Origin: a virus
Length of the DNA stretch: 64,000 nucleotides
Strand: one strand, 5' to 3'
Virus record (IMG/VR): IMGVR_UViG_3300034110_001237
Location: 32,001 to 96,000 of that record
Shown here: piece after piece, positions 10,459 to 57,050 of the stretch
How positions within the stretch are numbered: the stretch's first letter is position 1
Layout of the letters: the number at the start of each line of letters is the position of its first letter
The notes under the pieces: model-generated
Database searches by the model: none
What the model saw: only the letters and a program-made list of their open reading frames with translations
What the model was told of the DNA's origin: nothing
Translations under genes and position numbers: made by a program

Positions 10459-10535
10459 CTCTGCGTAGCTCAGTTGGATAGAGTGCCCGCTTCCGAAGCG
10501 GTCGGTCGTTGGTTCGAATCCAACCGTAGAGGCCA
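10459..10535 (+). tRNA. tRNA-Arg(CCG)
   Basis: Cloverleaf: acceptor CTCTGCG/CGTAGAG, D loop with GGA20, anticodon loop TTCCGAA, T loop TTCGAAT, encoded CCA. Confidence 0.95.
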
Positions 10536-16135: not shown

Positions 16136-16164
16136 TTGCCAAAGTGATCGAAATGTCGTATAAT
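16136..16164 (+). promoter_or_regulatory. sigma70-type promoter for the ncRNA-tRNA unit
   Basis: TTGCCA-17nt-TATAAT with upstream A tract; no RBS or ORF downstream. Confidence 0.8.
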
Positions 16165-16170
16165 AGTCCC

Positions 16171-16525
16171 GTTGTTAAGCAATAAGGTAATCTTGGGAAG
16201 TTGGCTTAGAAGCAGCCATCTTATAATGAGTAGAGCGGTTGCCATAGGTGTTTGGGATTAAGTGATGGTAAGCATCGGGTTTAAATGATTTAGCGGTCAT
16301 TTAAAGGTATCGGTGACAAGTGAGCCACGGTTTGTCGAAATCGAATCCACATTAAAGTAGATTTTGCAGATCAAAACGCCTCAGCCAAAAGCTCCCAGTT
16401 CTTGCAATAATGTAAGAATTCGCCGTGGTTGTGGTCTTGGTCAAGTAAGGAGGCACCCCAGAAATGGTAAGGCTGAATTCTCTTTTGGCGTAATAGCACA
16501 CCATGATTATGATTGTTTTTGCAAC
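16171..16525 (+). ncRNA. structured RNA containing a split mimic of the 23S rRNA H43-H44 (uL11-binding / GTPase-associated centre)
   Basis: GTTGGCTTAGAAGCAGCCATC (16200-16220) and GCGTAATAGC (16488-16497) match the conserved 23S rRNA 1059-1079 and 1091-1100 sequences as recalled; 5' and 3' ends pair; nested helices; higher GC than flanks. Confidence 0.85.
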
Positions 16526-16530
16526 AAAAC

Positions 16531-16599
16531 CTGCCACTAAGGCTGACCTTGGCCCTCTAAAAGCTAAAGGGAACGGTTCGACTCCGTTGTGGTGGACCA
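16531..16599 (+). tRNA. atypical amber-suppressor-type tRNA (anticodon CUA), short D arm
   Basis: Acceptor CTGCCAC/GTGGTGG, A73, CCA; T arm AACGG-TTCGACT-CCGTT; anticodon loop CTCTAAA; D arm AGG-CTGA-CCT. Confidence 0.75.
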
Positions 16600-16609
16600 A
16601 CTTCTAAAT

Positions 16610-16644
16610 AATGCCAGCTCATAGTGATATGATGTTGGCATTTT
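16610..16644 (+). terminator. intrinsic terminator closing the ncRNA-tRNA unit
   Basis: AATGCCAGC...GTTGGCATT plus T tract. Confidence 0.65.
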
Positions 16645-16700
16645 ATTGTCTTTATTTTATTTTTATGATATACTTATCCAAATTTTTGGAGATCTGTTAA

Positions 16701-42222: not shown

Positions 42223-43308
42223 ATGTCTACGTTTAAAGCAACCGTTCTTTCAGTCATTGTTGAGCCACACCCTAACGCTGATGCGATTGAACTGGCTCGC
42301 GTTGGTGATTTCTTTTCGATTATCCAAAAAGGATATTTGAAAACTGGCGATTTGGCTGTCTATATCCCAGAAGGTGCCCTTGTCCCTGAATTCATTCAGG
42401 AAGAAGTGGGGTGCCTCGGTAAATTGGCAGGTTCCAAGAAAAATCGTTTGAAACCGTCTATGCTTCGTGGCGTGCTTAGCCAAGGTCTTTGCTTTAAGGC
42501 CCGTGAAGGTTGGGAAATTGGTGATGATAAAGCCGAAGAATTGGGTATCGTGAAATATGAGGCTCCTATTCCAGCTTCTATGAATGGTGAAATTTCTAAC
42601 GTAGGCATTGAAAACACTTTCCACTTTGACATTGAAAACGTCAAACGCTACCCTGATGTGTTGGTTGAGGGTGAAGAAGTGTCGATGACTGAAAAACTGC
42701 ACGGTACTTTTACTATTGCAGGTAGTGTGTATGGTAAAGCTCCAATTCCACACACTGTTAATGGTCGTTCTTTTGTGAGTAGCAAAGGATTCTTTAACAA
42801 AGGTTTGGTGCTTCGTGATAACGAACAAAATGCTCATAACATTTACATTCGTGTAGCGAAGAAGTTTAATCTTTATGACATTACGGCTATCCTTTCAGAC
42901 CGTTACAAAACTAACGCTTACATTTCGGGTGAAACGTTTGGTGCTGTTCAAGATTTGACTTACGGTCTTGAAGCGGGTGTGTTCGATTTCCGTGTGTTCA
43001 ATGTGTTCCTTGGTAATCGTAGCGAAGCAAGTGGTGTGTTCCCAGTGAACGATGATGTATTAGAAGAAATTCTTGCTGAGTTCGACTTGAAGCGTGTTCC
43101 AGTGCTTTACAAAGGGCCATACAGTAAAGAAGTGATGTTGAAATATACGGATGGATTTGAAACCTATTCAGGCAAAGAAACACACATCCGTGAAGGTTTG
43201 GTTATTGAACCACTTGTTCAGCGTCGTGACCCAACCATTGGGCGTGTTGTCTTGAAAAGTGTTTCAACTGCTTACTTGTCGCGTAAAGGTGGCACTGAGC
43301 TTAACTAA
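42223..43308 (+). CDS. ATP-dependent RNA ligase, DRB0094-like family
   Basis: N-terminal HPNADAIE / LRGVLSQG module; motif I TEKLHGT, GETFG, FRVF, REGLVI, LKSVS. Confidence 0.9.
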   Translation: MSTFKATVLSVIVEPHPNADAIELARVGDFFSIIQKGYLKTGDLAVYIPEGALVPEFIQEEVGCLGKLAGSKKNRLKPSMLRGVLSQGLCFKAREGWEIGDDKAEELGIVKYEAPIPASMNGEISNVGIENTFHFDIENVKRYPDVLVEGEEVSMTEKLHGTFTIAGSVYGKAPIPHTVNGRSFVSSKGFFNKGLVLRDNEQNAHNIYIRVAKKFNLYDITAILSDRYKTNAYISGETFGAVQDLTYGLEAGVFDFRVFNVFLGNRSEASGVFPVNDDVLEEILAEFDLKRVPVLYKGPYSKEVMLKYTDGFETYSGKETHIREGLVIEPLVQRRDPTIGRVVLKSVSTAYLSRKGGTELN

Positions 43309-55725: not shown

Positions 55726-55895
55726 AAATTAACCCTCAAATAATCGATTATTTTACTTTATGGATGATAAAAAGTCAATGTTTTATGTTATTTTCATTTT
55801 ATTTCTTTGTTTTTAACTTTTTCATGATTAAAACGTTGCTTTATAGGCTCTATTTTGGTACAATATCGGAAATGAAAACAACGGAGATACACCAC

Positions 55896-57050
55896 ATGTC
55901 AATTTTTCCAACTATTCGCCATATTGACGACATCTTGCCAGCTTTGGTTGGTAAAGATTACATCGGTATCAACAAGCAATCTAACGGTTCGACTGTTATT
56001 TGCTATAACATCAGCAATGCTGAAGGTTTTGCTACGTCTTTTGAAAAAGAGTGTCGTGGTATTACTTTCAACCGCGATGGTAAAATTGTCTCCCGTCCTT
56101 TGCATAAGTTCTTTAACTTGGCAGAGCGTGAAGAAGTCTTGCCACAAAACTTGAATTGGGATGATGTTGTTGCTGTCTTCGATAAAATGGATGGTTCTAT
56201 GATTACGGGTGGTGTATTCCACGGTGAAGTCTTCGTAAAATCTAAAAAATCCTTTGAATCGGATGTGGCTGTCTCTGCTTTGGCTTATGTGAAAGCAAAC
56301 CAGAAATATTACGATTTCATCAAGCATTGTGCTAATGTAGATTTGACACCAGTTTTTGAATATACGTCGCCAAATAACCGGATCGTATTGCGTTACGATG
56401 AAGAAAAAATGACTGTGTTGCATGTTCGTCATAACATCACTGGTTTATACCATACTCCAGATGAAGTGGCAGCATTGGCGAAGTCTTTTGACATTCCAGT
56501 GAACGCACCATTGTTTGGTAAAGGCTTTGATTTGAAAGCATTGTTGGAATCTTTGAATACTGTTGAAGGAATCGAAGGTTATGTCATTCAGTTTAAAAAC
56601 GGCGATATGGTGAAAGTCAAAACTCGCTGGTATGTAAACTTGCACCATGCTGTTACTTTCGTGCGTATCCGTGATATTGCTCGTTTGGTATTGTCGGAAA
56701 AAATTGACGACTACATTGCATTTGTTGCTTTGAATGCACCAGAAGCCGATTTGACTCAAATCCATCATATCAACGACACTATTAAAGGTGAAATTGAAGG
56801 AATCAAGAAAGAAGTTGATACAATTTTGGCTCAGCATCAAGGTGCAGATTTCAAAACGTTGGCAACTACTTACTTGGGGCATCCATACTTCTCTTTCATC
56901 ATGACCACTGCTCGTGGTAAAGAAGTGGATTATTTGGACTACTACGAACGTAACCGTTTGAAAGAAGTTTGGTCTTTGGAGCAAGTGGATTTGGGTGACT
57001 TCACTGGCACCGACGAATCAGACGAAGAAGTTCAAGTAGACGAAGAGTGA
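55896..57050 (+). CDS. T4 Rnl1 (RnlA)-like RNA ligase
   Basis: ECRGI, RPLHKFFN, motif I KMDGS, FEYTSPNNRIV, EGYV, KVKT.WY; ATG after GGAG. Confidence 0.92.
   Translation: MSIFPTIRHIDDILPALVGKDYIGINKQSNGSTVICYNISNAEGFATSFEKECRGITFNRDGKIVSRPLHKFFNLAEREEVLPQNLNWDDVVAVFDKMDGSMITGGVFHGEVFVKSKKSFESDVAVSALAYVKANQKYYDFIKHCANVDLTPVFEYTSPNNRIVLRYDEEKMTVLHVRHNITGLYHTPDEVAALAKSFDIPVNAPLFGKGFDLKALLESLNTVEGIEGYVIQFKNGDMVKVKTRWYVNLHHAVTFVRIRDIARLVLSEKIDDYIAFVALNAPEADLTQIHHINDTIKGEIEGIKKEVDTILAQHQGADFKTLATTYLGHPYFSFIMTTARGKEVDYLDYYERNRLKEVWSLEQVDLGDFTGTDESDEEVQVDEE

What the first reader, a model, noticed from the sequence alone, without database searches (positions are those of the whole stretch)
16531..16599. 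Minimal amber (CUA) tRNA with a G3:U70 pair, co-transcribed with the rRNA mimic
Seen: 5 nt after the mimic lies a 69-nt cloverleaf. It has acceptor C1-G72, U2:G71, G3:U70, then A73 and encoded CCA, a perfect T arm, anticodon loop CUCUAAA (CUA at 16557-16559), a C31-A39 mismatch, and a 3-bp D stem with a 4-nt loop lacking G18G19. A terminator follows. Established: CUA reads UAG; G3:U70 with A73 is the AlaRS identity set; small D loops with CUA recall tRNA-Pyl, but no pyl genes are in this window. Inference: an Ala-inserting amber suppressor, or an uncharged tRNA-like decoy, working with the GAC mimic as a two-RNA translation-interference module. It could also be only an RNase P processing tag that matures the upstream RNA's 3' end.
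Basis: partly seen in the sequence, partly recalled or inferred. Interest (0 to 1): 0.8.

Follow-up and report, generated by a model that had tools for sequence, protein, structure and literature searches.

The report
Phage tRNA look-alike lacking D stem
A group of related large phages carries a strongly conserved 69-base RNA with the top half of a tRNA but no D stem and one long lower arm ending in a CUA-centred loop; it is a real functional RNA gene, but nothing in four genomes shows that it reads amber stop codons.

Summary
The 69-nt element at 16531-16599 is real. A 7-bp acceptor stem, canonical T arm and encoded NCCA occur four times in the 161.7-kb record (three true tRNAs plus this); chance predicts 0.03. 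It is not a cloverleaf. Eight distinct copies are 100% paired in three helices: acceptor, T arm and one long arm (7 bp, bulged A). Nearly all unpaired bases are invariant, including the loop CCUCUAAAA.

ARAGORN does not call it; Rfam tRNA gives 18.4 bits (threshold 29). In most lineages it shares a promoter-to-terminator unit with the 23S GTPase-centre mimic. In one relative (L066) the mimic is cleanly absent and the element stands alone behind the same promoter, so it is more than a processing tag. More distant mimic loci carry ordinary tRNAs (Met, Arg, Glu, Ser), tRNA relics or nothing.

Four collinear genomes (~690 kb) show no in-frame TAG; TAG is an ordinary stop.

My estimates: non-decoding tRNA look-alike matured by RNase P and acting in trans, 0.5; amber suppressor, 0.2.

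Earlier first-stage notes flagged this element in two relatives (e1-5757449, e1-5757459, e1-5784933).

The parts
16136..16164 (+). Sigma-70-type promoter TTGCCA-17-TATAAT of the RNA unit
   Evidence: 11 of 12 consensus matches. Conserved in L009 and L010. The equivalent promoter TTGTCA-17-TATAAT drives the stand-alone copy in L066.
16171..16525 (+). Upstream 23S rRNA GTPase-associated-centre mimic RNA (context, not part of the tRNA-like element)
   Evidence: 36 nt at 16194-16229 are 88.9% identical to E. coli 23S rRNA. Its ends pair in the fold of the whole transcript. Its 3' signature is found in 31 loci.
16526..16530 (+). 5-nt spacer; inferred RNase P cleavage between 16530 and 16531
   Evidence: Variable in relatives. 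The cleavage itself is inferred, not shown.
16531..16537 (+). Acceptor stem, 5' strand (columns 1-7), pairs with 16589-16595
   Evidence: 7 pairs, all 8 copies paired. Pair 6:60 switches A-U to G-C. U2.G71 and G3.U70 are invariant.
16538..16546 (+). 9-nt connector UAAGGCUGA replacing the D arm (columns 8-16)
   Evidence: Unpaired in the covariation-supported fold. Invariant except column 15 (G/A) in one copy. A role for its GG as a stand-in for G18G19 is inference only.
16547..16570 (+). Long anticodon-like arm: 16547-16553 pairs with 16563-16566 and 16568-16570, bulged A at 16567, 9-nt loop CCUCUAAAA at 16554-16562 (CUA at 16557-16559)
   Evidence: 7 pairs, 100% paired in 8 copies. Four pairs change on both sides (18:39 in three types, 19:38, 22:34, 23:33) and one on one side (21:35). 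The loop and the bulge are invariant.
16571..16571 (+). Single-nucleotide variable region (G41)
   Evidence: Invariant.
16572..16588 (+). Canonical T arm: 5-bp stem, loop UUCGACU
   Evidence: Pair 44:56 switches C-G to G-C in two copies. The loop is invariant.
16589..16599 (+). Acceptor 3' strand, discriminator (16596, A or G among copies) and encoded CCA
   Evidence: The discriminator and column 15 are the only variable unpaired positions.
16610..16650 (+). Intrinsic terminator hairpin (16610-16642) and U-rich tail
   Evidence: -16.8 kcal/mol, z -4.57, 0 of 200 shuffles fold as well. Conserved in relatives and in L066.

Best explanation
The element is a tRNA-derived RNA without a D stem. It has three helices: a 7-bp acceptor stem, a canonical T arm, and one long arm of 7 bp with a bulged A that takes the place of the stacked D and anticodon stems.

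It is transcribed from a strong promoter, in most lineages behind the 23S GTPase-centre mimic. RNase P is inferred to cut at 16530/16531. That cut would finish the mimic's 3' end and release a 69-nt RNA that ends in RCCA.

The released RNA then acts in trans as a tRNA look-alike that is not used for decoding. It would be a ligand or decoy for a factor that binds tRNA. This fits the same theme of imitating the translation machinery as the mimic it usually travels with.

Shown: the fold, the purifying selection on every part, the shared transcription unit, and independence from the mimic in one lineage. Inferred: RNase P processing, the lack of decoding, and the decoy role. The partner is unknown.
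For: Top half non-random: 4 hits in the record (3 true tRNAs plus this) against 0.03 expected.

Fold: 8 distinct copies, 152 of 152 cells paired, 6 pairs with changes on both sides, and no shuffled or slid control reaches this. The alternative folds are broken.

Selection: the element differs by 2 of 69 nt from each of L009 and L010. Third codon positions of the next gene differ by 23% and 36%, and the spacer after the element by 36-55%. True tRNAs of the same genomes show a few substitutions each between G0 and G2, judged by eye from the sequences printed, so the element is at least as conserved as they are.

Unpaired bases are invariant except the discriminator and column 15. The discriminator varies only A/G. 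That keeps the RCCA motif on which RNase P cleavage of a model substrate was shown to depend (abstract of PMC12710915, seen).

Independence: in L066/G003 the same promoter and terminator enclose the element alone. The ~342-nt mimic is deleted and is absent from the whole 192.8-kb record. The flanks are only 75-82% identical to G2, while the element is identical.

Non-decoding: there are no in-frame TAG codons in four collinear genomes. TAG stops swap with TAA and TGA in orthologues.

Lineage habit: the same record holds two more tRNA-like matches. One is a 103-nt element with intact acceptor, T arm and CCA; the other is a weak Rfam tRNA match.

Context: two RNA ligase genes lie in the window. 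By analogy with T4 (my own knowledge, not tested here), such ligases repair tRNAs cut by host nucleases.
Against: The loop holds the heptamer CUCUAAA that efficient amber suppressors carry. The long arm roughly preserves tRNA length, as a decoder would need. G3.U70 is invariant, and AlaRS needs little else.

A mere mimic would not obviously need these features, although descent from a tRNA-Arg(UCU)-like gene could explain them.

The age of the deletion in L066 is unknown, so selection on the element after loss of the mimic is not proven.
Confidence: 0.5

Rival explanations
1. It is a working amber suppressor tRNA without a D arm. A host synthetase charges it (AlaRS through G3.U70, or GlnRS as for many CUA tRNAs), EF-Tu delivers it, and it reads UAG. 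It would sit in a standard-code, low-GC phage, either as a state that precedes recoding or as a way to extend host or phage proteins.
For: The loop is invariant and centred on CUA, with U before it and AA after it, in all 8 aligned copies and in L066. G3.U70 and CCA are invariant.

The long arm of 7 bp plus a C.A opposition and a bulge is close to the roughly 10 stacked layers of the D and anticodon stems. That comparison is inference, guided by the extended anticodon stem of the D-armless mitochondrial tRNA-Ser in PMC9427863.

It evolves like the true tRNAs of the same genomes and exists as a stand-alone gene in L066.

A model in which low-GC phages with rare TAG acquire suppressor tRNAs before recoding has been published (10.1101/2021.08.26.457843). 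Here GC is 33.8% and TAG ends 12 of 184 plus-strand ORFs.
Against: There is no in-frame TAG in about 690 kb of four collinear genomes. TAG-terminated genes are conserved and swap with TAA and TGA, with no excess of back-up stops.

The pair that closes the 7-nt loop is an invariant C.A mismatch, so the loop is effectively 9 nt. In the thermodynamic model the 7-nt-loop stem has about 1% probability.

To my knowledge, no decoder without a D stem is known on bacterial ribosomes.

The discriminator varies A/G. U2.G71 next to G3.U70 and C1-G72 depart from the tRNA-Ala acceptor. The Rfam tRNA score is 18.4 bits.
Confidence: 0.2
2. It is only a cis-acting processing and stability signal, like a plant mitochondrial t-element or mascRNA. 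RNase P recognises the acceptor/T-arm stack and RCCA, cuts, and so defines the 3' end of the upstream mimic. The released piece has no function of its own.
For: In the wider mimic family the mimic is followed within about 18-39 nt by true tRNAs of varied identity: Met, Arg, Glu plus Arg, Ser-CGA and Ser-UGA. In L022 and L029 it is followed by truncated tRNA relics.

The top half and RCCA are intact. GOLLD and ROOL RNAs are likewise often near tRNAs, possibly co-transcribed (PMC5737381).
Against: L066/G003 keeps the element under the same promoter with the mimic deleted.

The lower half, which RNase P does not need, has 0-1 changes in 34 nt where neutral sites changed 23-36%. Its unpaired bases are invariant in 8 copies.

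About half of the distinct mimic loci have no tRNA after them.
Confidence: 0.12
3. It is a decoder with an expanded anticodon loop, descended from a phage tRNA-Arg(UCU). It would still read AGA-type codons or promote frameshifting through its 9-nt loop.
For: The best non-self match of the element's covariance model is the tRNA-Arg(UCU) of L017/L025 (33.6 bits; the next tRNA scores 27.7). The two share C1-G72, U2.G71, A73 and the motif UAGC-UCUAA-GCUA in the lower arm.

tRNA-Arg(UCU) is the tRNA that follows the mimic in UNO-G1W1 and L005.
Against: Other Arg(UCU) tRNAs score much lower (23.5 bits or unlisted), so the ancestry signal is weak. No frameshift sites were sought or seen. The same structural objections apply as for the suppressor reading.
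Confidence: 0.05
4. It is a decaying tRNA pseudogene without function.
For: Standard tools do not call it. Truncated tRNA relics do occur after the mimic in other lineages (L022, L029).
Against: Every helix substitution in 8 copies is compensatory or pairing-compatible, and the loops are invariant. Divergence is 2.9% against 23-36% at neutral sites.
Confidence: 0.02

Closest known systems
D-armless animal mitochondrial tRNA-Ser(AGY/GCU)
   Same: Both are three-helix tRNAs with no D stem. In both, the D-replacement region adjoins an extended anticodon stem (PMC9427863; PMC4013460).
   Different: This element is in phages with bacterial-type promoters. It keeps a fully canonical T loop, an encoded CCA and a 9-nt connector containing GG. 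Its loop is 9 nt, or 7 nt closed by C.A. Decoding is not shown. The mitochondrial tRNA works with co-evolved factors.
Phage-encoded amber suppressor tRNAs of TAG-recoded phages (crAss-like, Lak and others)
   Same: Both are phage genes with a CUA triplet in the anticodon position, in low-GC genomes with rare TAG (10.1101/2021.08.26.457843).
   Different: Those were predicted as tRNAs by the authors' tRNA search, and their use tracks stop-codon recoding. Here there is no D stem, standard tRNA finders make no call, and four genomes show no in-frame TAG.
tRNA-like processing elements: plant mitochondrial t-elements, and mascRNA downstream of MALAT1
   Same: Both are tRNA-shaped modules placed directly after another RNA. 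tRNA-processing enzymes cut at the module and so define the neighbour's end (t-elements: PMC1920247; mascRNA from my own knowledge).
   Different: This element is also kept as a stand-alone gene (L066), and its non-top-half nucleotides are invariant. That points to a job of its own.
Stable RNAs in phage tRNA clusters (T4 RNA C and D) and GOLLD/ROOL RNAs near tRNAs
   Same: All are structured phage ncRNAs that are co-located, and probably co-transcribed, with tRNAs (PMC5737381; T4 RNAs from my own knowledge and note e1-5669324).
   Different: Those cases concern the large RNA partner. The object here is the tRNA-shaped partner itself, remodelled and conserved.
tRNA-Pyl
   Same: Both have a CUA anticodon and a reduced D region.
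   Different: tRNA-Pyl keeps a D stem, has a 6-bp anticodon stem and a 3-nt variable loop, lacks the T-loop TPsiC consensus, has G73, and comes with pyl genes (my own knowledge). Here the T loop is canonical, there is no D stem, and no PylS is in the record.
tRNA-Ala and the AlaRS identity set
   Same: G3.U70 is invariant in 8 copies, and the discriminator is A73 in 6 of them.
   Different: Positions 1:72 and 2:71 are C-G and U.G instead of G-C and G-C. The discriminator is G in 2 copies. Charging is untested.

Membership tests
Canonical bacterial/phage tRNA (Rfam RF00005, ARAGORN) | Score at or above the family threshold, or a call by a standard finder | tested here: not met
   Rfam tRNA scores 18.4 bits against a gathering score of 29, and only when 89 nt are searched. 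It is not listed in the 901-nt or whole-record searches. ARAGORN makes no call at default settings or down to 80% thresholds.
Canonical bacterial/phage tRNA (Rfam RF00005, ARAGORN) | D stem (10-13 with 22-25) and D loop with G18G19 | tested here: not met
   The proposed 3-bp D stem is broken in 2 of the 5 copies counted, and in 5 of 8 by the column letters printed. Its 3' strand covaries with columns 38-40 instead.
Canonical bacterial/phage tRNA (Rfam RF00005, ARAGORN) | 7-bp acceptor stem, 5-bp T stem, T loop UUCRANY, 3' NCCA | tested here: met
Canonical bacterial/phage tRNA (Rfam RF00005, ARAGORN) | 7-nt anticodon loop closed by a standard 31:39 pair | tested here: not met
   C24 opposite A32 is invariant in 8 copies. 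The helix supported by covariation closes a 9-nt loop.
Amber suppressor tRNA of a recoded phage | In-frame TAG codons in phage genes | tested here: not met
   None in G000-G003, about 690 kb. TAG swaps with TAA and TGA in orthologues.
Amber suppressor tRNA of a recoded phage | Aminoacylation and UAG readthrough | not testable with these tools
   Needs acid-urea gels and a TAG reporter.
tRNA-Pyl system | pylS (and pylBCD) present | tested here: not met
   No PylS C-terminal domain (TIGR02367) in the 161.7-kb record. The record may be incomplete.
tRNA-Pyl system | tRNA-Pyl architecture: D stem kept, 6-bp anticodon stem, 3-nt variable loop, non-canonical T loop | tested here: not met
   No D stem, a 1-nt variable region and a canonical UUCGACU T loop. 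The feature list is from my own knowledge.
tRNA-Ala identity (AlaRS substrate) | G3.U70 wobble pair | tested here: met
   G.U at 3:63 of the alignment in 8 of 8 copies.
tRNA-Ala identity (AlaRS substrate) | A73, G1-C72 and G2-C71 as modulating elements | tested here: not met
   The discriminator is A in 6 copies and G in 2. Pair 1:72 is C-G and pair 2:71 is U.G.
D-armless tRNA (structural class known from animal mitochondria) | No D stem, with a replacement connector and an extended anticodon stem | tested here: met
   A 9-nt connector and a 7-bp arm with strong covariation. Comparison made with PMC9427863.
D-armless tRNA (structural class known from animal mitochondria) | Functions in decoding | not testable with these tools
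RNase P substrate / tRNA-like processing element | Coaxial acceptor and T stack of 12 bp with a 3' RCCA | tested here: met
   7 plus 5 bp, all paired in 8 copies. The discriminator is only A or G and CCA is invariant.
RNase P substrate / tRNA-like processing element | Cleavage at the 5' end of the module | not testable with these tools
   Inferred only.

The most novel reading that the evidence does not exclude
The element is the first decoding tRNA without a D arm found outside organelles. It would be a phage amber suppressor, charged through its invariant G3.U70 or by GlnRS, that works on a bacterial ribosome in a phage still using the standard code. That would capture the step before stop-codon recoding, or a device for reading through host or phage TAG stops.
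Probability: 0.2. Interest if true: 0.85.

Novelty: new variant of a known kind. Interest (0 to 1): 0.6.

Why it matters
tRNA-shaped RNAs that do something other than decode are known, for example viral tRNA-like structures, mascRNA, t-elements and Y-RNA modules. I found no description of a conserved, CCA-ended tRNA look-alike without a D stem in phages, or of one carried with a copy of the ribosome's GTPase-docking site.

The covariation here gives a firm secondary structure from very little sequence, and with it a cheap set of experiments.

If the RNA is a decoy, it points to a host factor or defence that reads tRNA shape. If it decodes, it shows that a bacterial ribosome can use a tRNA without a D stem, and it would catch a phage just before recoding.

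It also shows that standard tRNA finders miss functional tRNA-derived genes in phage genomes.

Tried and rejected
Detection
- ARAGORN at default settings and at relaxed thresholds down to 80% made no call, or a spurious 93-nt 'tRNA-Leu'.
- The ARAGORN -mt 'mtRNA-Pyl' call was rejected as evidence: 40 calls per 161 kb, 37 of them false.
- Rfam gathering and E-value searches of the region gave no family.

Searches for relatives
- An exact 25-nt search in viral contigs found nothing.
- BLAST of the 69 nt against phage records gave only chance 18-28-nt matches.
- A covariance-model search of 530 kb found no paralogue.
- The upstream 319-aa protein gave no related loci.
- An alignment-based protein search added none in viral or prokaryote genome collections.
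- The mimic signature is absent from 185,579 prokaryote species genomes.
- L028, a 1.86-Mb metagenome contig, is cut just before the element, and its record is not held.

Genes in the record
- PylS and AlaRS are absent.
- Terminase PF03237 was not found in three records.
- Neighbouring proteins have no informative family.
- The 158-aa gene that replaces the cassette in L058-L061 has none either.

TAG recoding
- ORF density under alternative codes, extensions after TAG, internal TAGs with open flanks, and orthologous stop-codon comparison were all negative.
- No link was found between TAG and the shared C-terminal M-x-x-hydrophobic tail.

Other
- A literature search for a described phage GTPase-centre mimic found none.

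Full report
**What is at the coordinates**

The window is bases 32001-96000 of a 161.7-kb IMG/VR record labelled provirus, 33.8% GC.
- A 7-bp acceptor stem with C1-G72, U2.G71 and G3.U70.
- A 5-bp T stem with loop UUCGACU.
- Discriminator A and an encoded CCA.
- The heptamer CUCUAAA, with CUA at 16557-16559.

An 11-of-12 sigma-70 promoter lies at 16136-16164. The 355-nt 23S GTPase-centre mimic ends at 16525. A strong terminator hairpin follows at 16610-16642. In a fold of the whole transcript, the mimic closes on itself and the 69-mer folds as a separate domain.

**Is it more than chance?**

Standard finders say no:
- ARAGORN is silent even at 80% thresholds.
- Its mitochondrial mode calls the element, but that mode makes 40 calls in the record, 37 of them false.
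- Rfam tRNA reaches only 18.4 bits against a threshold of 29.

The top half is nevertheless highly specific. A scan for a 7-bp acceptor, a 5-bp T stem, a TTCRANN loop and NCCA finds only the three true tRNAs and this element. Shuffled sequences give 0.03.

**Homologues and the true fold**

I collected homologues in three ways:
- Through the downstream gene.
- Through protein relatives and their contigs.
- Through a degenerate pattern of the element itself.

This gave eight distinct gap-free copies, plus a ninth in L066 that is identical to the L010 copy.

Covariation is decisive:
- The minimum-energy CCCU/AGGG stem is also broken.
- A three-helix fold is paired in 152 of 152 cells. No shuffled or slid control comes near it.

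Six pairs change on both sides:

| Pair (alignment columns) | Change |
|---|---|
| 6:60 | A-U and G-C |
| 18:39 | three pair types |
| 19:38 | U-A and C-G |
| 22:34 | G-C and A-U |
| 23:33 | C-G and A-U |
| 44:56 | C-G and G-C |

The fold is as follows (window coordinate = 16530 + column):
- Acceptor stem: 1-7 with 59-65.
- 9-nt connector UAAGGCUGA: 8-16.
- Long arm: 17-19 with 38-40, and 20-23 with 33-36, with A37 bulged.
- 9-nt loop CCUCUAAAA: 24-32.
- A single G: 41.
- T arm: 42-58.

All unpaired bases are invariant except column 15 and the discriminator, which varies only A/G.

[quoted passage not shown] Here, however, the T loop is canonical and the CCA is encoded.

**Selection**

Against L009 and L010 the element differs at 2 of 69 positions each. 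Third codon positions of the adjacent gene differ by 23% and 36%. The spacer just after the element differs by 36-55%. The lower half has 1 and 0 changes in 34 nt. The three true tRNAs of the same genomes show a few substitutions each between G0 and G2, by eye from the sequences. The element therefore evolves like a functional tRNA-class RNA. It is not a relic.

**Relation to the mimic**

A signature of the mimic's 3' end retrieves 31 loci. What follows the mimic varies:
- In several loci, a true tRNA of varied identity starts 18-39 nt downstream: Met in Aeromonas phage 4_4572 and Pseudomonas phage Astolliot, Arg-UCU in UNO-G1W1 and L005, Glu then Arg in L017/L025, Ser-CGA in L019, and Ser-UGA in L027.
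- L022 and L029 carry truncated tRNA relics.
- About half of the distinct loci have another closed structure or nothing obvious.

The CUA element is thus specific to the window's clade and is not a feature of the mimic family.

Within that clade, more distant relatives (L058-L061) lack the whole cassette.

Following up earlier notes e1-5757449 and e1-5757459, I found that L066/G003 keeps the same promoter (TTGTCA-17-TATAAT), the element and the terminator. The ~342-nt mimic there is cleanly missing and is absent from the whole 192.8-kb record. The flanks are only 75-82% identical to the nearest relative, while the element is identical. This argues against a role only as the mimic's 3' processing tag, and against an obligatory two-RNA module.

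**Does it decode UAG?**

Four collinear genomes (G000-G003, about 690 kb) show dense standard-code ORFs. None has an in-frame TAG inside a conserved gene. The long open frames that follow some TAGs are a stop followed by the next gene, or antisense frames. TAG ends 12 of 184 plus-strand ORFs and swaps with TAA and TGA in orthologues. The record holds no PylS or AlaRS.

The 7-nt-loop reading needs an invariant C.A mismatch as the closing pair. The thermodynamic model gives that stem about 1% probability.

On the other side:
- The heptamer CUCUAAA is what good amber suppressors carry.
- G3.U70 is invariant.
- The long arm roughly keeps tRNA length.
- A published model has low-GC phages gaining suppressors before recoding.

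I put decoding at 0.2.

**Origin**

The element's covariance model matches the tRNA-Arg(UCU) of L017/L025 best (33.6 bits). The two share C1-G72, U2.G71, A73 and the lower-arm motif around UCUAA. This is a weak lead that the element descends from the tRNA-Arg(UCU) that follows the mimic in other phages.

**Verdict**

This is a real, selected tRNA look-alike without a D stem. It is most likely matured by RNase P and acts in trans without decoding (0.5). The record also holds two more tRNA-like matches and two RNA ligase genes. By analogy with T4, from my own knowledge, such ligases repair tRNAs cut by host nucleases, which fits a phage that deals in tRNA-shaped RNAs.

The partner and the mechanism remain inferred. 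No expression data could be obtained.

Noticed in passing
window 16171-16525: The upstream RNA copies the 23S GTPase-associated centre: 36 nt are 88.9% identical to E. coli 23S rRNA. It belongs to a family found in 31 phage or metagenome loci with inserts of very different size. Its 3' signature is absent from 185,579 prokaryote species genomes, and it matches no Rfam family.
   Followed up: partly
G000:C1:113138-113240 and about 113785-113960 (L037 1443-1545 and about 2090-2265), beyond the window's end: Two more tRNA-like matches. The first is a 103-nt element with an intact acceptor stem, T arm and ACCA; it is conserved in G001 and, with an insertion, in G002. The second is a weak Rfam tRNA match (18.3 bits) at 113893-113957; by eye it has a T arm and an ACCA end with a large insert upstream, but my scan did not find its true acceptor. 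Rfam tRNA gives 19.3 bits for the first.
   Followed up: partly
window 42223-43308 and 55764-57050: Two RNA ligase genes: phrog_968, and phrog_562, the family annotated as RNA ligase and tail fiber attachment catalyst. By analogy with T4 Rnl1 (my own knowledge), they suggest a tRNA-repair capacity against host anticodon nucleases.
   Followed up: no
window 10459-10535: The phage tRNA-Arg(CCG) starts with C1-G72, like the tRNA look-alike. That is unusual for bacterial-type tRNAs. All three true tRNAs encode CCA and lie on the plus strand.
   Followed up: no
L058-L061, 1372-1848 (minus strand): In relatives whose downstream gene is 55-57% identical, the whole promoter-mimic-element-terminator cassette is replaced by a reverse-oriented 158-aa gene with no Pfam or PHROG match. 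The site behaves like a variable accessory slot.
   Followed up: partly
L006/L007/L008/L021 and L026, directly after the mimic: Instead of a tRNA, the mimic is followed by another stem-closed, multi-branch RNA: a 17-bp closing stem in L006 and a 14-bp closing stem in L026.
   Followed up: no
L022 and L029, directly after the mimic: Truncated tRNA relics follow the mimic: the 5' half of a tRNA-Ser in L022, and the 5' two-thirds of a tRNA with a CCA (Trp-like) anticodon loop in L029. ARAGORN does not call either.
   Followed up: no
window 16485-16513: A weak promoter-like site (TTGGCG-17-TATGAT, 9 of 12) lies inside the mimic's 3' end and would start transcription about 10 nt before the element. 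Matches of this strength are near chance level in the region, so separate transcription is possible but unsupported.
   Followed up: no
G000-G003, whole records: All four records are labelled provirus at 50-59% estimated completeness. They are collinear over their whole length, share the same three tRNAs, and three of them gave no Terminase_6N match (G003 was not searched). One relative lies on a 1.86-Mb metagenome contig (L028). What kind of element this is, large phage or something else, is unsettled.
   Followed up: partly
G000, 47 of 257 ORFs of at least 100 aa: Many unrelated proteins end in M-x-x-hydrophobic, as earlier notes reported. Their stop-codon usage does not differ from that of other genes.
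   Followed up: partly
L064 2702-3057: An IS605 OrfB / Cas12f-like TnpB gene sits next to the paralogous 218-aa gene array in one relative.
   Followed up: no
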